This document shows, piece by piece, positions 4,345 to 29,536 of a stretch of DNA of 32,000 nt. This DNA is from Candidatus Saccharimonadota bacterium. Its GTDB lineage: Bacteria > Bacillota_I > Bacilli_A > Mycoplasmatales > Hepatoplasmataceae. The notes beneath the pieces are model-generated. The model was not told where the DNA came from and made no database searches. It saw only the letters and a list, made by a program, of their open reading frames with translations. Position 1 is the stretch's first letter, and every line of letters starts with the position of its first letter. A program made the position numbers and the translations under genes. Location of the stretch: the NCBI RefSeq assembly GCF_000582535.1, contig NZ_CP006932.1:30001-62000 (forward strand), in the 5' to 3' direction.

Positions 4345-6431
4345 ATGAAAAATGAAATAGAAAAATTGTTGAAAGAAAATACCAACGGAATTAGCTTTAA
4401 ACAATTAAAAAATCAATTAAATCTTAATAAACAAAACGATGGATATAAGTTAAATCAATGATTAAATGAACTTATAAAAGAAGAAAAAATTTTTTATCGT
4501 AAAAAAACAGAATTATATTATATTAAAGATCAAAAAAGTGTAATTGGTACTTTTCGTACTACATTTAAAGACTTTGGTTTCGTAGAAGATGAAGAAGGAT
4601 CTATTTTTATTCCAGCAAGATTTGTTCTTAATGCATTAGAAGGTGATACTGTAAAAGTAGTTTTATTTTCTGATCTTAATAATCCTAAGAAAACTGATGA
4701 TAACAGAAGAGCAGGAAAAATTGTTCGTGTTATTAAAAGAAACGGTGGAAATATTGTTGGAAGAATAAAAAAAAAAACAATAAGTTAGAATTTGTTCCTG
4801 ATGATATTGATCCTAAATATGAATATCAAATTGTAGATAATAATAATCTAAAAGAAGGACAAATTGTAATTGTTACTTTTAAAGATTTTGCTGATCGAAA
4901 AATTTATGTTACTCTTAAAAAAATTTTAGGAGATGAAAAAGATCCTAGTCTTGATTATTTATTAATAAAATATAAAAATAATCTAAAAGAAGAATTTTCT
5001 GAAAAAATAATAAATGAATTAAATAATAAGGATTTTTCAAAAGAAAAAAATCAAGAAAAGCGCATAGATTTAAAAGATCGTTTAATAGTTACAATTGATG
5101 GGGAAGAATCAAAAGATTTAGATGATGCAATTGATTTTAAGATTATAAATGATAATTTATATCATTTAGGGGTTCATATTGCTGATGTTTCTCATTATGT
5201 GAAAACAGATAGTGAGTTAGATTTTGAAGCTTATGATCGTGGTAATTCGATTTATCTTATTGATAAAGTATTTCCGATGCTACCTAAAAAATTATCAAAT
5301 GATCTTTGTTCTTTAAACCCTAAAGAAGAAAAATTAACAATATCATGTGATATGAAAATTAATAGTGAGGGTAAAATTTTAGAATCTAAAATTTATCCCA
5401 GTATTATTAAATCTTCTTATAGGTTAACTTATAATGAAGTAGATAAACTTTTAAATAATGAGATTCCTTTACTTTTTAATGATAAAAATTTATCCAAAAT
5501 GCTAATAGATGCAAATAAAATTGCAAATAAAATGCGTAAATATAAATTGCAAAATGGGATGATTGATTATCAATTAAAAGAAGTAAAAATTAAATTAGAT
5601 CAAAACGGAAATCCAATTTCTATTTATGAAAAAATTCAAACACCATCAGAGGCCTTAATTGAAGACTTTATGGTTGCTGCAAATGAGTCGGTTGCTAAAT
5701 GATTTTCAGATCATAAATTACCGACCATTTTTCGCGTACATGCAAAACCAAAATATGAAAACTTAGAACCTTTTTATAATATTTTAAAATTATTTAAATT
5801 TGAATTTAATTTTAAAAATTTAAATTCCAGAAATTTTCAGAATTTTTTAGAAAAATATAAAAATAATCAAAATATTGAAATAATTAAAAAAATAATGATT
5901 CAAGCAATGGAAAAAGCAATTTATCTTGAAAGAAATGATGGACATTATGCTTTGGGATTAAAAAATTATCTTCATTTTACTTCACCAATTAGAAGATATC
6001 CTGATCTTTATGTTCATAGATTATTAAGACTATTTTTATTTCAAAATAAAAAAGATATTGATAAAAAAGATCTATTAAATAAACTTCATGAAATTGCTAA
6101 TCATTGCTCATTAAAAGAAAAAGAAGCAATGGTAAGTGAAAGAAAATTGGCAGATATTAAAAAAGTTCGTTTTCTTGCTAATAAAGAAGGAGAAAAAATT
6201 ATTGGGACAATTGTTAATTTTTCAAATTTTGGTATTTTTGTTGAATTAGAAAATAATACACAAGGAATGATAAGATTAGATAATTTAAAATTAAGTGCAA
6301 AAAATTACGAATATGATGAAAAGAAATTTTTACTTAAAGTAGATGAAAAAAAATATCAAATTGGTGATCAAGTGTCTGTTAAAATAATTTCATTAGATAC
6401 AATAAGAGGATTAATTGAATTAGCATTATAA
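4345..6431 (+). CDS. rnr: ribonuclease R (VacB), reading frame interrupted by a 1-nt deficit in an A11 tract at 4767-4777
   Basis: The N-terminal part (4345-4785, frame 1) encodes a winged-helix plus cold-shock-like region, GTFRTTFKDFGFVEDEEGSIFIP, and ends at TAG 4786. The rest (frame 3, readable from about 4779) carries RNB motifs (TIDGEESKDLDDAI, GVHIADVSHYV, YALGLKNYLHFTSPIRRYPDL) and a C-terminal S1 domain. The total is 2087 nt, which is 3n-1. Confidence 0.85.
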
Positions 6432-6890: not shown

Positions 6891-7234
6891 GGGGGTGCAG
6901 TGGATTTGACAGTTAAGGATAAGCTTAAAGGGCAGTGGTCTAGTAAACCATAATACTATTTAAAGATAATCGGAAACGATGATTCTGCTGTTGATTTTGC
7001 TTTAATGCAAGAACAAAATTTTCAAAATTCAAACTTTGCATTAGCATAATAAATTAACACTTTAACTATTTTTTTTCGCTTGGAATTTAGTTAGAGAGGC
7101 TTACAAGCGAGTGTAGAATTATTTAAGTAGTGAGTTAAACTTACTTTGTTTGCTAATTTTTTAAATTAGATAAACTGTAGATCTTTAAGTATTTTTTTAA
7201 TTGGACTCGGGTTCGATTCCCGACACCTCCACCA
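6891..7234 (+). ncRNA. ssrA: tmRNA (SsrA)
   Basis: The 5' end GGGGGTGCAGTGGATTTGACAG pairs with the 3' end CACCTCC-ACCA, giving a 7-bp acceptor stem with a G3:U70 pair. A T-arm GGGTTCGATTCCC is present. The internal tag ORF reads GGA AAC GAT ... TTT GCA TTA GCA TAA TAA (6972-7052), encoding GNDDSAVDFALMQEQNFQNSNFALA. Confidence 0.9.
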
Positions 7235-12079: not shown

Positions 12080-12171
12080 GGAGTAGTACTCAAGTTTGGT
12101 TAAGAGGCCTCTCTGCTAAAGAGGTAGTTGGGGAAACCCATTCGCAGGTTCAAATCCTGTCTACTCCACCA
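12080..12171 (+). tRNA. tRNA-Ser (anticodon GCU), CCA encoded
   Basis: The acceptor stem is GGAGTAG/CTACTCC. The anticodon stem is CCTCT/AGAGG with loop CTGCTAA. There is a long variable arm and a T-arm GCAGG-TTCAAAT-CCTGT. Confidence 0.92.
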
Positions 12172-13771: not shown

Positions 13772-13846
13772 GCGAGTGTAGTATAGCGGCTATTATGTCT
13801 GGCTTCCAACCAGAAGATGAGGGTTCGATTCCCTTCACTCGCTCCA
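13772..13846 (+). tRNA. tRNA-Gly (anticodon UCC), CCA encoded
   Basis: The acceptor stem is GCGAGTG/CACTCGC. The anticodon stem is TCTGG/CCAGA with loop CTTCCAA. The T-arm is GAGGG-TTCGATT-CCCTT. Overall it is close to the canonical bacterial tRNA-Gly(UCC) layout. Confidence 0.9.
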
Positions 13847-20627: not shown

Positions 20628-21494
20628 ATGAAACAAATTACTTTTGAAGAATTTCAAAAATTAAATCAAGAAGGATTTATTAAGATAAATAAAGCAATAA
20701 TTTCCTTAGGAATAAAATGATGAGCTCATTCAGGTACCTTGATTGGTGTAGTTCGCGAGAATGGATTTTTATCATGAGACGATGATATTGATATGGGAAT
20801 GGCAATTGATGATTATTTAAAATATCTCGAAGATTTAAATAAAATTGCAGAAGAAAATAATTATTATTTTGCTGATCGTTTTAAAAATATAGGAATGACA
20901 GTCTCTAGATTTATTTATAAGGAAAAATTTATTATTTCTTATGAGGGAAAAAAATATGTTTCTTCTCCTTTTATAGATATAATGATTGCAATACCTTTTA
21001 AAAAAGAAAATAAATTAAAATTTAAAATTTGAGAATGACAAAATAAATATTTTTTTCTATTTAGTAGTCTTCCTCCTGTTCTTCCAAAAATTGATACAAG
21101 ATATGGTAGAGTACGCAAATTACATTGATATCATCAACTTGGCTCAGTAGTTGGACAAATATTACTTTTCTGAACAATTCCTTTATTTTATTTACAAAAT
21201 TATTGATTAAAAAAGAAAGCAAAAAATAAAAAAAAATATAAAAATTTAATTCTTTTTCATTCTTATACTTCAAGATTTTTTATATATAGAAAAGATCAAT
21301 TAATTGAAAGAAAAATTTTAAATGGAAAAACAAAAATTTATATTTCAAAATTCTATATTAAAGAATTAAATGCTTCTTTTGGAAAAAATTGAACAAAAAA
21401 ACCACCAATTGAAAAACAGATTCCTCATCACATAATTTATAATCCTTATAATCCTAAAAAGGAACCAAAAATTTATCCACATATTGTAAAATAA
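20628..21494 (+). CDS. licD: LicD-family phosphotransferase, copy 1
   Basis: WWAHSGTLIGVVRENGFLSWDDDIDMGM is the LicD/NTase-fold signature. 288 aa are read through 7 in-frame TGA codons and checked codon by codon. It is a paralog of 27578-28435. Confidence 0.8.
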
Positions 21495-24888: not shown

Positions 24889-25554
24889 ATGGAAAAAAAA
24901 ACACCTAATAAATATAATATTTGTTTAACTTATGGAACTTTTGATATGTTTCATTTTGGTCATCTTTCCCTTTTATTAAGATGTAAAAATCAATGTAATC
25001 AATTAATTGTTGGTGTTGCAACTGATAAATATAATAAATTTAAAAATAAAGAGTCATTTCAATCTGAAAATCAAAGATTTAATTTCATTAATATGCTTCC
25101 ATTTGTAGATAAAACTATTTATGAACATAATTTTTCCACACAATGAAAAAAAGATTACAAGAAATATAAGGCAAATGCAATTATTATGGGTGATGATCAT
25201 GTTGGAGAATTAGATTATTTAATTAAAGAGGGTCTTAATATTATTTATTTGAAGCGCACAACAGGAATATCCACAACAGATATTAAAGAAAAATTAAAAT
25301 GCAAAAAATATTCTTTTTTTATTCAAGAAAAATGAATTGAAACTAAAAATATATTTAATAGAATTAATAAAAATATAAATAAGAATGATCATTTTTCAAT
25401 TTTAGGAATAAGTAATAAGATTGAGGCACATTATGAACTTTATCAATTTTGAAATAATAGCAAAAAAGTAGATTTAATTTTCTTTTTTGATGATATTGAA
25501 GAAATAAATCTATTAAAAAGAAAAATTAATTACTGAAAAAAATTAAAAGGTTAG
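24889..25554 (+). CDS. tagD: TagD-like cytidylyltransferase, copy 1, with about 85-aa C-terminal extension of unknown function
   Basis: CLTYGTFDMFHFGHLSLL (HxGH) and RTTGISTTDIK are glycerol-3-phosphate cytidylyltransferase family motifs. The ORF continues through four in-frame TGA codons to TAG 25552-25554, giving 221 aa. Confidence 0.75.
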
Positions 25555-26394
25555 TCATTTAAATTTAAAGAAAATCATATAAAAGATTCATATTTTTGTT
25601 TTTAATTTTTTAATTTTAATTTCTTTTTTTATTTGTTTAAAATACTGTCTTCTTGTATTAAAGAAATTTTTATTTAAAGCATATTTTATAAAATTAGGTT
25701 TGAATGTTTTATCTATATTATTAGAGTATTTATTATAAAAATCTAATAAGATAACCAAATCATTTCAATATTCTTCTTTTTGTTTTTGATTTATTTTCCC
25801 TTTTTTTATTTTTTCCAATATATTATTGTATATAAGATAAGGTATATTAATATTTTTTCAACTAGAATCAATTCCAAAAGCCATTCCAATATATTGAAAT
25901 TCAAAGTGTTTAATATTAGTTAATAAATATTTTTTATTTTTAATTGCTTTTTTTGTTTTAAAAATCGTATTATGAGTTAATAAATTAAGTTTCTTATTAT
26001 TATATTTTTGTTCTCCACTTTTATATTTTTTATAAAATGAATGTTGTATTAGATCAACATTAGTATTAGTTAATTCATATATAAGATTTTTTAATCAATT
26101 AAAAATTATTTTATCTTTTGCTTTTATTAATTTAAAATATTTGCTGTCTATTTTTTCAAGATTTTCATATAAAAAATCCGTTTTTTTTAGATTTTTTTCA
26201 TTTTCTAAAATTGTTATCTTTTTATTAAAAGCTTTTGTAATTTTATAATTATTAATATAAATTATAATTTGTACTAAATTATCAAGAGAATTATCTTCTA
26301 AATATTTTTGGAAAAAATTAATTCTAGTAATTTCTTCTAAATTAATTTTTTCGTCAATTGTATATATAAAGCTTAATATTTTTTTGTTTTTCAC
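25543..26394 (-). CDS. hypothetical protein (Lys/Asn-rich), possibly a degenerate GT-A-like fold
   Basis: The track ORF 26095-26394 is extended through TGA codons to TAA (forward TTA at 25543-25545), giving 283 aa. The start is GTG. The N-terminal pattern ILSFIYTIDEK...VQIIIYINNY...NEKNL...YFKLIKAKDKI loosely mimics GT2 strand/helix spacing but lacks DxD. Confidence 0.4.
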
Positions 26395-26551
26395 AATATT
26401 TTGTAATTTTACACTTCTTATTATTAATTTATAATAATTATAAGAAACAAATATTTAAAATATTATCATATTTTTTATAAAAAATAATTTTTATTAATTT
26501 ATATAAATTTGTATTTATAAAATTTGCTATTATTAATATGAAGTGAAAGAA

Positions 26552-27568
26552 ATGGGATTTTTACTACAAAGAGTTAATGATGATTTTTTAAAAAAATATT
26601 TTAATAAAAATGAATATTTTGAATATTTAGAAAATATAAATTATGGAAAATACATAAATAAAGAAATTTATTCAAAAATAAAAATTTTAAATGATTATTT
26701 AAAATCAAAAGATTTCGAATTATTTAATTTTATTACAGAAAATATAATATCTTTTGATCAGGAAAATAAAAATATTTTAAAAATTTATGATGATTTTTTT
26801 ATCTATCATCAAAGAATACTTTTAATATTTTTTGAAAGTTTTACACAATTTGAGAAATTAATTAAAAACAAAATAATAAATTCTATTAATTATTTAAATG
26901 TTAAATCTCTTTATCAATTAATTAATATTATTATTAAAGATAGCAAAAAGAATGAAAAGGAATTAAAAGGATTTCCCAAAAGATGTGAAAATATTTTATC
27001 ATATTTTTGTGCTCCTAATTTAGAAGAAGTTCGTGAAAAAATCGGAATATATAATATTAATGAAAAAGATTCTTTTAATATGTTTTATAAAAAAGCAAAT
27101 AAATCAGAAAAAAGATATTTTGATTATAAATTAATAAATGAATTTTCTTTTTCTGATATTAGTGAATTTTTTGAAATTCTTAAAAAGCAAAATTATAAAA
27201 ATTATTTAAATATTAGAGATTTTATTAAAGATCTTTTGGGTGAAAAGAAATATAATAAATTTTATGAAGATAATCAAAGCGATAATGGAATAAAACCAAT
27301 TATAGATTGATTCTTATCAAATTATAAAAATGTAAAAATATTACGAAATAAAATTATGCATAATAAAGTTTTATTTGCTAATATAAAAGAATTAAATAAT
27401 GGAATAAATAGTTTATTGAAATTATCTAATCAAAAGAAAAACAATATAGGTGATATTACTTTAAAAAAATTTTTAAAAGAAACACTTTCTATTCTTGGAA
27501 AAATTAAACAAGAAAAGGCAAGGAAATTTTTTAAGGAGAAAATAATAAATTTAGAAGATAAAAATTAA
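26552..27568 (+). CDS. Abi_2 (AbiD/AbiF)-like HEPN-motif protein, candidate abortive-infection/defence protein
   Basis: Track ORFs 26543-27310 and 27356-27568 share a frame and are joined by TGA 27308-27310. The start is ATG 26552, or alternatively GTG 26543. The C-terminal region reads WFLSNYKNVKILRNKIMHNKVLF, which contains R-x4-H (27344-27361). Overall length (about 340 aa) and helix-rich composition fit Abi_2. Confidence 0.5.
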
Positions 27569-27577
27569 TAGAAATTT

Positions 27578-28435
27578 ATGAAGAAAATAAGTTTTGAGGA
27601 ATTTCAAAAATTAAATTTTGAAGGTTTTAAAAAAATAAATGAAAAAATACTACAAAATAATATAAAATGATGAGCTCATTCAGGATCATTATTAGGATTT
27701 ATTCGTGATAAAAAATTAATTTCTTGAGATGATGACATTGATATGGGGATGAGATTATATGATTTTAAAAAAAATTTTCAATTATTATCTAAAATTGCTA
27801 ATGAAGAAAATTATAAATTAATTGATAGGTTAGATTATTTTGGTCTTGATGTTGCAAGATTTATTTATAAGGAAAAATATATCATTGAATATAAAGGAAA
27901 AGAATATATATCCTCTCCTTACATTGATGTAATGATGGGTGTTTCTTCTAAAAATAATAATCTTTTGAAAAGAAAATTGTGATCTTGAACAAATAATTAT
28001 TTGTTTATATTTAATTCTTTCTGAAAACCTCTTCCATATTTTGGTTGAAAATTTAATAAAGTTAAAAAAATTCATTGATATGAACAATTTAGTGTATTTA
28101 TTGTAAGAATAATTTTATTTCCTTTATTTTTAGCTTTACCATTACAAAATTTATGATTAAAGCATAAAAGTAAAGATAAAAGTGATAAAGTTTCATTTTA
28201 TTATAATTACGATAATTTAGGAATAATATATGATGTAAATAAATTGCAAGAAAAGAAAATAAATGATTTTAAAATTTTAGTAAATGATAATTATTTAGAA
28301 GAATTAAATTTAAGATTTAAAGAATGAAAGATTTTACCCTCTAAAGAAAAACAAATTCCTCATCATATATTTCTTACACCAAATTTGAATAAATATAAAA
28401 ATAAATATAAAATAGATCCATTTATAATTAAGTAA
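27578..28435 (+). CDS. licD: LicD-family phosphotransferase, copy 2
   Basis: WWAHSGSLLGFIRDKKLISWDDDIDMGM. 285 aa, verified codon by codon through 10 in-frame TGA codons. It is collinear with copy 1 from N- to C-terminus (...KQIPHHI...). Confidence 0.8.
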
Positions 28436-28536
28436 ATAATTTTTAATTTTAATTAAATTTTTAGATAATATTATTGTTATTATTTATTTTTTAAATATTA
28501 ATTGATTAATTTTGGAATGGTTTTATAAATAATTGT

Positions 28537-28965
28537 ATGAAAAAATATAAAAATTGTATCACTTATGGAACATTTGATTTGTTTCATTATGGTCATAAAA
28601 GACTATTTAAAAGAATAGATAAATATTGTGAAAATTTAATTGTAGCAATTTCAACTGATCAATTTAATAAACTAAAAAATAAAAAAGCTTTTGATAATTA
28701 TATAGTTAGAAGTGAAAATGTTTTAAATTGTTCTCCTACTATTAAAAAAGTAATTAAAGAAGTTAATTGAGAACAAAAAATAGAAGATGTTAAAAAATAT
28801 AAAATAGATTGTTTTATTATGGGTTCTGATTGAAAAGGAAAATTTGATTATTTAGATAAGAATTGTGATGTTCTTTATTTAAGCAGAACACCTTTTATTT
28901 CTTCAACTTATTTGCGCAATAAAAAAATTGAAGAAAAAAATCTTCAAACTAATCATAACAATTAG
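28537..28965 (+). CDS. tagD: TagD-like cytidylyltransferase, copy 2 (short form)
   Basis: CITYGTFDLFHYGHKRLF (HxGH) and ...IMGSDWKGKFDYL...LSRTPFISSTYLR. 142 aa. Confidence 0.75.
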
Positions 28966-29009: not shown

Positions 29010-29087
29010 GGCGAGTGTGGCGAAGTGGTTAACGCATCGGATTGTGGTTCCGACATTTCGAGGGTTCGATTCCCTTCACTCGCCCCA
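29010..29087 (+). tRNA. tRNA-His (anticodon GUG) with encoded G-1 and CCA
   Basis: An extra 5' G pairs with C73. The acceptor stem is GCGAGTG/CACTCGC. The anticodon stem is TCGGA/TCCGA with loop TTGTGGT. The T-arm is GAGGG-TTCGATT-CCCTT. Confidence 0.92.
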
Positions 29088-29113: not shown

Positions 29114-29536
29114 ATGATTAATAAAGCAATTGCAAATAATGAATTTGAAACAGAAAAAATCGGAAAAGATTTAATAGTTAATTTTCCTGAAAATAAATTA
29201 ATTATTATAATTGGCGAAATCGGTTCAGGTAAAACAGTCTTGGTAAAAGGTATTGCTAAGGAATTGGGTATTTCTGATATTGTAAATTCTCCTACTTTTT
29301 CTATAAAAAAAACTTATAAAAATTTAGTTCATTATGATCTTTATTTTGCAACTAAAAAACAATTATCAATTAATGAATTTAATGCTTTAATTGCAGAAGA
29401 TTTAGTTGATAATTATGTTGTAATTGAATGGGGTGATAATTTACTTTTAAAAGATATAAAGAATTTTTTAAAAGTGAATATTACTGTACAAAAAAATCAA
29501 AAAAGAAATATTAAATGAAAATTAAAAGGAAATTAA
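29114..29536 (+). CDS. tsaE: tRNA t6A37 biosynthesis ATPase TsaE
   Basis: GEIGSGKTVLVKGIAKELGI..VNSPTFSI....HYDLY. The start is ATG 29114, after the tRNA. The ORF reads through TGA 29516-29518 to TAA 29534-29536. Confidence 0.85.

What the first reader, a model, noticed from the sequence alone, without database searches (positions are those of the whole stretch)
26552..27568. Abi_2/HEPN-like (R-x4-H) abortive-infection candidate embedded in the glycan locus
The roughly 340-aa protein has the size and helix-rich character of AbiD/AbiF (Pfam Abi_2) proteins. Near its C-terminus it carries WFLSNYKNVKILRNKIMHNKVLF, which matches the family's conserved ...RN..AH... block and the HEPN RNase motif R-x4-6-H (Arg codon 27344-27346, His codon 27359-27361). 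Abi_2 proteins are HEPN-domain phage-defence effectors in Firmicutes. A defence gene sitting between duplicated surface-glycan modules fits the idea of a variable anti-phage island: surface glycoconjugates are common phage receptors, so receptor modification and abortive infection would be co-located. Defence systems in mollicutes remain sparsely characterised.
Basis: partly seen in the sequence, partly recalled or inferred. Interest (0 to 1): 0.6.

Follow-up and report, generated by a model that had tools for sequence, protein, structure and literature searches.

The report
Divergent Abi_2/HEPN RNase-like gene in Hepatoplasma
This gene of an isopod gut symbiont encodes a very divergent relative of the AbiD/AbiF phage-defence RNases that standard detectors miss, but it is a fixed, vertically inherited gene and not part of a variable defence island.

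The parts
26552..27568 (+). CDS of the Abi_2/HEPN-like protein, 338 aa under table 4 (X271_00052). An alternative GTG start lies at 26543.
27308..27310 (+). In-frame TGA that encodes Trp253. It truncates the ORF to 255 aa under table 11.
26852..26878 (+). Block E101-K-L-I-K105-N-K-I-I109. It contains the HEPN E-x3-[KR] motif, and 7 of its 9 residues are invariant in all 9 family members.
27344..27361 (+). R265-N-K-I-M-H270, the predicted HEPN catalytic R-x4-H motif with a polar residue after R. It is invariant, and it lies at the end of model helix 247-270.
26395..26551 (+). Divergent intergenic region upstream of the gene. It has a promoter-like TTTACA-16-TATAAT at 26408-26435 and a conserved block AAAATTTGCTATTATTA at 26519-26535. 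It has no abiF RNA, no tandem repeats and no conserved fold.
27578..28965 (+). Context: LicD2 (27578-28435) and the CTP_transf_like gene (28537-28965). LicD2 starts 9 nt after the target's stop codon, with no predicted terminator between them, so co-transcription is likely.
25543..26394 (-). Context: divergently transcribed 283-aa gene with a weak GT2 match. It is conserved in Hepatoplasma but is not found next to the distant homologs.

Best explanation
The gene encodes a stand-alone, all-helical protein of 338 aa. It is a highly divergent member of the Abi_2 (AbiD/AbiF) branch of the HEPN superfamily, in a small clade seen so far only in genomes that read TGA as Trp. The following points are shown here. 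The ORF is intact. It is homologous to Abi_2 through intermediate sequences. The two HEPN active-site signatures, E101-x3-K105 and R265-N-x3-H270, are fully conserved. The gene is inherited vertically at a fixed position and is under purifying selection. The abiF-type RNA antitoxin is absent. The following points are inferred from what is known of AbiF, AbiD1 and other HEPN proteins. The protein probably forms a homodimer whose R/H motifs make a metal-independent RNase site. That site would be kept silent by low expression or an unknown trigger. On activation, for example by an infecting mobile element, it would cleave RNA and arrest growth. Its position ahead of LicD and a cytidylyltransferase gene is best read as where the gene became fixed, not as a functional defence island.
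For: A profile of the five Hepatoplasma proteins finds only P0006-P0009 among 1.84 billion representative proteins, at E 3.8e-26 to 9.5e-15. P0008 matches Pfam Abi_2 at 27.3 bits (E 5.4e-6, profile positions 8-184 of 184) and P0007 at 24.6 bits. The consensus of the 9-sequence alignment matches at 30.6 bits (E 5e-7), and the consensus of the four distant sequences at 24.2 bits. P0006 carries a faint precomputed Abi_2 hit. Ten reversed or shuffled controls give no Abi_2 hit at E<=10. All hits place R at profile position 173 and H at 178. The only hhalign local alignment puts R265/H270 on R202/H207 of AbiF, and those residues are the catalytic pair (PMC12373285). Sixteen of the 30 family-invariant residues lie in the two motif blocks, which make up 32 of 338 residues (P about 5e-11, with blocks chosen after the fact). 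The motifs fit the published HEPN criteria: a polar residue after R, an upstream E-x3-[KR], and the R..H motif at the end of a helix entering a loop (PMC3710099; model helix 247-270). dN/dS is 0.14-0.31. P0006 lies in tandem with a second Abi_2-like gene next to GmrSD and a DEAD/ResIII helicase gene.
Against: The target and all its Hepatoplasma orthologs fail Pfam Abi_2 and PADLOC AbiD directly. The consensus also fails PADLOC, whereas genuine AbiF scores 316 bits there. hhalign against 27 AbiF-clade proteins is not significant (E 0.15 and 0.1), and neither are local HMM searches in either direction. Foldseek with a confident model found nothing in the PDB or BFVD (best E 0.4, TM at most 0.26) and did not return the solved AbiF 8vz6, which is in the PDB copy. 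Fixed synteny in five lineages, no mobile or defence neighbours and genome-typical GC3 are all unusual for a defence gene. No antitoxin RNA or small ORF was found. No activity data exist.
Confidence: 0.6

Rival explanations
1. It is a domesticated HEPN protein. It descends from Abi_2 but now has a housekeeping or regulatory RNA-processing role in Hepatoplasma, possibly controlling the LicD and cytidylyltransferase genes that are probably transcribed with it. It would not act in abortive infection.
For: The gene has the same position in all five Hepatoplasma lineages and shows purifying selection similar to its neighbours. It lies 5-18 nt upstream of LicD2 in every lineage, with no predicted terminator. 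It has been kept in a genome of about 0.6 Mb. No antitoxin was found. HEPN domains are known to act in RNA processing as well as in defence (PMC3710099).
Against: Distant homologs lie in unrelated contexts, one of them a defence-like cluster with GmrSD, so the glycan linkage is specific to Hepatoplasma. Tight gene spacing is normal in this genome, so it says little about function. dN/dS is somewhat higher than for the housekeeping neighbours.
Confidence: 0.2
2. It is not a HEPN protein. It would be a lineage-specific helical protein, for example a scaffold or accessory factor of the LicD phosphotransfer pathway, and its RN..H motif and weak Abi_2 scores would be coincidental.
For: There is no direct HMM hit. 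There is no fold match. Profile-profile and local HMM comparisons with a genuine AbiF clade are not significant. R-x4-6-H is common by chance in this proteome. The Abi_2 scores lie close to the gathering threshold.
Against: Several related sequences hit the same Pfam family over nearly its full length and in the same register. None of 10 composition-matched controls does. Conservation is concentrated on the two HEPN motifs. Homologs occur away from any glycan genes.
Confidence: 0.13
3. It is the toxin of a toxin-antitoxin pair whose antitoxin was not recognised here, such as a very AT-rich RNA unrelated to RF03085 or an antisense transcript.
For: AbiF proteins are toxic and are neutralised by an upstream ncRNA (PMC12373285). 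A 17-nt block is conserved in the upstream region.
Against: No Rfam family matched at E<=10, while the positive control worked. The upstream region does not fold better than shuffled sequence (z = -0.69), has no tandem repeats, and shows no covariation across five lineages. Only chance ORFs of 16-17 codons are present.
Confidence: 0.07

Closest known systems
Pfam Abi_2 (PF07751): AbiD, AbiD1 and AbiF abortive-infection proteins of Lactococcus, AbiF of C. difficile phages, and PbAbiF (PDB 8vz6)
   Same: It is a single-gene, all-helical protein of about 300-350 aa. The motifs occur in the same order: E-x3-[KR], then a central helical insert, then W..L..(I/L)RN..xH near the end of the domain. The RN-x3-H motif aligns with the catalytic R202/H207 of AbiF. 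Two family members and the family consensus match the Pfam model. One relative lies in tandem with another Abi_2-like gene beside GmrSD, a layout reported for Abi_2 genes (PMC12373285).
   Different: The target itself scores below every threshold in Pfam and PADLOC. The spacing between the E motif and the RN motif is 158-165 aa in Hepatoplasma, against 115 aa in AbiF_Cd. There is no abiF RNA (RF03085) upstream. Foldseek does not link the model to 8vz6. The gene is chromosomal, fixed and syntenic across a genus, whereas Abi_2 genes are typically patchy and carried on plasmids or prophages.
HEPN superfamily, Abi2/Swt1 clade (Anantharaman et al. 2013, PMC3710099)
   Same: It has R-x4-H with N after the R, an upstream E-x3-K motif, the R..H motif at the end of a helix entering a loop, and a large variable helical insert between the two motif helices.
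   Different: The four-helix core and the spatial proximity of the two motifs were not verified by structure comparison. RNase activity is untested.
Type III toxin-antitoxin-like AbiF-RCd22 system of C. difficile
   Same: The predicted toxin belongs to the same protein family.
   Different: There is no repeated abiF RNA motif, no terminator-controlled leader, and no structured or conserved upstream RNA.

Membership tests
Pfam Abi_2 (PF07751) | The protein itself matches the Abi_2 HMM at or above the gathering score of 25.6 bits | tested here: not met
   The target and all five Hepatoplasma members give no Abi_2 hit at E<=10. The Hepatoplasma-only consensus gives none either.
Pfam Abi_2 (PF07751) | The family matches Abi_2 through significant intermediate sequences (transitive homology) | tested here: met
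   Profile A1 reaches P0006-P0009 at E 4e-26 to 1e-14. P0008 scores 27.3 bits and P0007 24.6 bits. The 9-sequence consensus scores 30.6 bits over profile positions 22-183 of 184. Ten controls are negative.
Pfam Abi_2 (PF07751) | The RN-x3-H catalytic motif lies at the C-terminal end of the domain, aligned with AbiF R202/H207 | tested here: met
   It is invariant in 9 of 9 sequences. All Pfam hits imply profile positions 173 and 178. hhalign pairs target residues 257-277 with AbiF residues 194-214.
Pfam Abi_2 (PF07751) | Fold similarity to the solved AbiF structure (8vz6) | tested here: not met
PADLOC AbiD/AbiF defence model | Match to the PADLOC AbiD HMM | tested here: not met
   There is no hit for the target, the orthologs, the distant homologs or the consensus. 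The control AbiF_Cd scores 315.8 bits.
AbiF-ncRNA (type III TA-like) systems | An abiF RNA motif (Rfam RF03085) or repeated ncRNA lies upstream of the gene | tested here: not met
   No Rfam match was found at E<=10 in 25400-28600, nor in L001, L003, L004 or L006. The control, phiC2 AbiF, has RF03085 at 37.6 bits. There are no repeats, no significant fold and no covariation.
HEPN superfamily | R-x4-6-H motif with a polar residue after R | tested here: met
   R265-N266-K-I-M-H270 is invariant in the family. The criterion comes from PMC3710099.
HEPN superfamily | An upstream conserved acidic residue in an E-x3-[KR] motif | tested here: met
   E101-x3-K105 is invariant in 9 of 9 sequences. It corresponds to E87-x3-R91 in AbiF, which is invariant in A4. 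The criterion comes from PMC3710099.
HEPN superfamily | [quoted passage not shown] | tested here: met
   In the model, helix 247-270 ends at H270, followed by a loop at 271-277 and a helix at 278-291.
HEPN superfamily | A four-helix core with the two motifs side by side, confirmed by structure comparison | tested here: inconclusive
HEPN superfamily | Metal-independent RNase activity that depends on R and H | not testable with these tools
   This needs biochemistry.
Variable defence island | Presence or absence, or position, varies among related genomes, and the gene has mobile or defence neighbours | tested here: not met
   Gene order is identical in five Hepatoplasma lineages. The neighbours are glycan and housekeeping genes. 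GC3 is 0.077, within the genome's range. Only the distant homolog P0006 has defence neighbours.

The most novel reading that the evidence does not exclude
This would be a previously unrecognised, mollicute-restricted clade of Abi_2/HEPN RNases that works without the abiF guide or antitoxin RNA. In Hepatoplasma it would have been domesticated into a core gene co-transcribed with LicD/TagD-type surface-glycan genes. It would then be either a constitutive RNA-processing or regulatory enzyme, or an RNA-free, differently triggered Abi. That would bear on how AbiF-like proteins function before or without RNA partners, which matters for the proposed AbiF-to-Cas13 evolutionary path.
Probability: 0.2. 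Interest if true: 0.55.

Novelty: new member of a known kind. Interest (0 to 1): 0.33.

Why it matters
Published defence inventories of Hepatoplasmataceae list only restriction-modification and CRISPR-Cas9 (PMC10928387), and this gene is annotated as hypothetical in every source. It shows that strongly AT-biased minimal genomes can hide recognisable defence or toxin families below the thresholds of Pfam and PADLOC, and that these families can be recovered with intermediate sequences or a family consensus. A HEPN toxin-like gene kept at a fixed site, without a visible antitoxin, in a 0.6-Mb symbiont genome is a small puzzle in its own right. Beyond that it is one more divergent Abi_2 homolog with no functional data, so its general significance is modest.

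Tried and rejected
- Direct scans of the target against Pfam, PADLOC and NCBIfam gave nothing. NCBIfam does not recognise even genuine AbiF, so it is uninformative for this family.
- PDB sequence searches with profiles A1, A2 and A5 gave only noise.
- tblastn of P0001 and P0008 against plasmids, and of P0006 against phages, found no match.
- pNP40 (accession DQ534432, recalled from memory) is not in the plasmid collection.
- hhalign and local HMM comparisons with the AbiF_Cd clade were not significant.
- I rejected the idea of a conserved two-gene module with the upstream 283-aa gene, because the neighbours of the distant homologs are unrelated to it.
- I rejected a hidden RNA or peptide antitoxin as far as these tools can test it.
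- I found no support for recent horizontal acquisition, because GC3 is typical of the genome and synteny is fixed.
- The first structure model, built on 5 sequences, was too poor to use at pLDDT 61.

Full report
**Observation.** The window is about 22% G+C and uses TGA as a Trp codon. Under table 11 the ORF stops at 27310. Under table 4 it runs from ATG 26552 to TAA 27568 and encodes 338 aa. An in-frame GTG at 26543 is the start used by RefSeq, giving 341 aa. The quoted peptide is residues 253-275. R265 is CGA at 27344-27346 and H270 is CAT at 27359-27361. The protein is 100% identical to X271_00052, a hypothetical protein of Candidatus Hepatoplasma crinochetorum Av. The two LicD genes (48% identity) and the two cytidylyltransferase genes (42% identity) are old paralogs, not a recent duplication.

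**Is the motif more than chance?** A bare R-x4-6-H motif occurs in 6 of the 28 + strand ORFs of at least 100 aa in this window, so it proves nothing on its own. The context is what counts. RN-x3-H occurs once among those ORFs, in the target. It uses one of only two His residues in the protein. It is invariant in all nine family members, which fall to 26% identity with the target.

**Homology.** The target and its Hepatoplasma orthologs hit nothing in Pfam or PADLOC even at E<=10. Only five close homologs exist, all from Hepatoplasma.

- A profile of the five, searched against 1.84 billion representative proteins, found only four more relatives: P0006 to P0009, at E 3.8e-26 to 9.5e-15. All four have in-frame TGA codons and lie on contigs of 22-24% G+C, so they come from mollicute-type genomes.
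- P0008 matches Pfam Abi_2 at 27.3 bits, above the gathering score of 25.6, over profile positions 8-184 of 184. P0007 scores 24.6 bits. P0006 has a faint precomputed Abi_2 hit.
- The consensus of the nine-sequence alignment scores 30.6 bits (E 5e-7, profile positions 22-183), and the consensus of the four distant sequences scores 24.2 bits.
- Ten reversed, locally shuffled or globally shuffled controls gave no Abi_2 hit at E<=10, so composition does not explain the match.
- All hits place the Arg at profile position 173 and the His at 178.

**HEPN criteria.** Anantharaman et al. (PMC3710099) define the HEPN active site by three features: R-x4-6-H with a polar residue after R, an upstream acidic residue in an E-x3-[KR] motif, and the R..H motif at the end of helix-3 entering the loop to helix-4. 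The target meets all three.

- The family has R265-N266-x3-H270 and E101-x3-K105, both invariant.
- In the AlphaFold2 model built on nine sequences (pLDDT 85.6, pTM 0.82), helix 247-270 ends at H270 and is followed by a loop.
- Sixteen of the 30 invariant residues fall in the two motif blocks, which cover 32 of 338 residues. The hypergeometric P is about 5e-11, but the blocks were chosen after the fact, so this is descriptive.
- AbiF has the equivalent invariant residues E87-x3-R91 and R202-N-x3-H207. R202/H207 match the catalytic R210/H215 of PbAbiF in PDB 8vz6 (PMC12373285).

**Evidence that weakens membership.**

- hhalign of the family against 27 AbiF_Cd-clade proteins aligns only the RN..H block and is not significant (E 0.15 and 0.1). 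Local HMM searches in both directions are also non-significant.
- The PADLOC AbiD model scores genuine AbiF at 316 bits but does not see this family's consensus.
- Foldseek with the confident model found nothing in the PDB (best E 0.4, TM at most 0.26) or in BFVD. It did not return 8vz6, which is in the PDB sequence copy searched.

**RNA partner.** AbiF of C. difficile and PbAbiF are neutralised or guided by an upstream ncRNA carrying the abiF motif, RF03085. A permissive Rfam scan of 25400-28600 found nothing at E<=10, and nothing relevant turned up in the homolog loci. The same search found RF03085 at 37.6 bits upstream of phage phiC2 AbiF, which served as the positive control. The 157-nt upstream region does not fold better than shuffled sequence (z = -0.69). 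It has no tandem repeats, no covarying pairs across five lineages, and only chance ORFs of 16-17 codons. It does contain a promoter-like site and a conserved 17-nt block.

**Context and evolution.** Gene order from EF-G to UvrD is identical in the window and in four other Hepatoplasma lineages, including H. scabrum and H. crinochetorum Ps.

- The target's orthologs are 63-89% identical, within the range of its neighbours.
- dN/dS is 0.20, 0.14 and 0.31 in three genome pairs. That indicates purifying selection, looser than for TsaB or CTP2 but similar to the glycosyltransferases.
- GC3 is 0.077, typical of the genome.
- LicD2 starts 5-18 nt after the target's stop codon in every lineage, with no predicted terminator in the window, so co-transcription is likely.

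None of this looks like a variable defence island. The distant homologs, by contrast, sit elsewhere. P0008 lies between the SecY operon and two tRNAs. P0006 lies in tandem with a second Abi_2-like gene (22.5 bits, motif IRNHVAHN), beside GmrSD and a DEAD/ResIII helicase gene. That setting is typical for Abi_2 genes (PMC12373285). The neighbours of the distant homologs are unrelated to the 283-aa gene upstream of the target, so there is no conserved two-gene module.

**Interpretation.** The most likely reading (confidence about 0.6) is a divergent, stand-alone Abi_2/HEPN protein with an intact RNase-type active site. It was inherited vertically within Hepatoplasma after an old acquisition. Its RNase activity, dimerisation and abortive-infection role are inferred from the family, not shown here. 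The rivals are:

- a domesticated HEPN protein with a housekeeping or regulatory role tied to the LicD operon (0.2);
- a non-HEPN helical protein whose motifs are coincidental (0.13);
- a toxin with an unrecognised antitoxin (0.07).

**Novelty.** Abi-like genes have been noted in a few mollicutes (PMC13375369). The Hepatoplasmataceae defence inventory lists only RM and CRISPR-Cas9 (PMC10928387), and every source calls this protein hypothetical. It is a new, very divergent member of a known family. Its interest is modest, mainly as an example of a defence-family gene hidden by extreme AT bias and fixed in a minimal genome without a visible antitoxin.

Noticed in passing
window 4345-6431 (+): An RNase R-like gene (RNB-type motifs DLDDAIDF and HIADVSHYV) appears split. 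A 147-aa N-terminal ORF ends at 4788, and the rest continues in another frame that is open from about 4737 to 6431. The shift lies in an A-rich run near 4765-4790. This could be a pseudogene, a sequencing error or ribosomal slippage.
   Followed up: partly
L006 1656-2438 and 3098-5269 (contig JBEVUJ010047769.1): The distant homolog P0006 is followed in tandem by a second Abi_2-like gene of 260 aa (motif IRNHVAHN; Pfam Abi_2 22.5 bits). The cluster also holds a GmrSD type IV restriction gene and a DEAD/ResIII helicase gene. It is a defence-island-like cluster on a contig that reads TGA as Trp, within a very large (probably host) genome assembly.
   Followed up: partly
L004 7148-7903 (-) and 8969-9148 (-): The homolog P0008 lies between the SecY/ribosomal-protein operon and two tRNA genes. 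Its divergent upstream neighbour (251 aa) begins MYYIGIDETGT, which resembles a DUF3800 start, but it hits nothing in Pfam or PADLOC.
   Followed up: partly
window 25543-26394 (-): A 283-aa gene lies on the minus strand inside an otherwise mostly + strand glycan locus. It gives only a weak GT2 match (18.1 bits), has the lowest G+C of the genes I measured (0.151), and overlaps the 3' end of the upstream cytidylyltransferase gene by 12 nt. It is conserved at 73-91% identity in the other Hepatoplasma lineages.
   Followed up: partly
window 20628-21494 / 27578-28435 and 24889-25554 / 28537-28965: The two LicD genes (48% identity) and the two CTP_transf_like genes (42% identity) are ancient paralog pairs kept in all five Hepatoplasma lineages. 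The first cytidylyltransferase carries an extra C-terminal extension of about 80 aa (221 aa against 142 aa) and evolves fastest in the locus, with dN/dS 0.21-0.38.
   Followed up: partly
window 26543-27568: Annotations of this gene differ between sources. GenBank AHK22169.1 has 338 aa (ATG start at 26552). RefSeq WP_128824159.1 has 341 aa (GTG start at 26543). A JGI/IMG entry has 255 aa, which is the table-11 truncation at the TGA Trp codon.
   Followed up: yes
window 6891-7234, 12080-12168, 13772-13843, 29011-29084: These are a tmRNA gene and three tRNA genes. The tRNA at 29011-29084 lies directly after the second LicD-cytidylyltransferase module and overlaps the 5' end of the longest ORF call for TsaE, so the true TsaE start is probably near 29114.
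   Followed up: no
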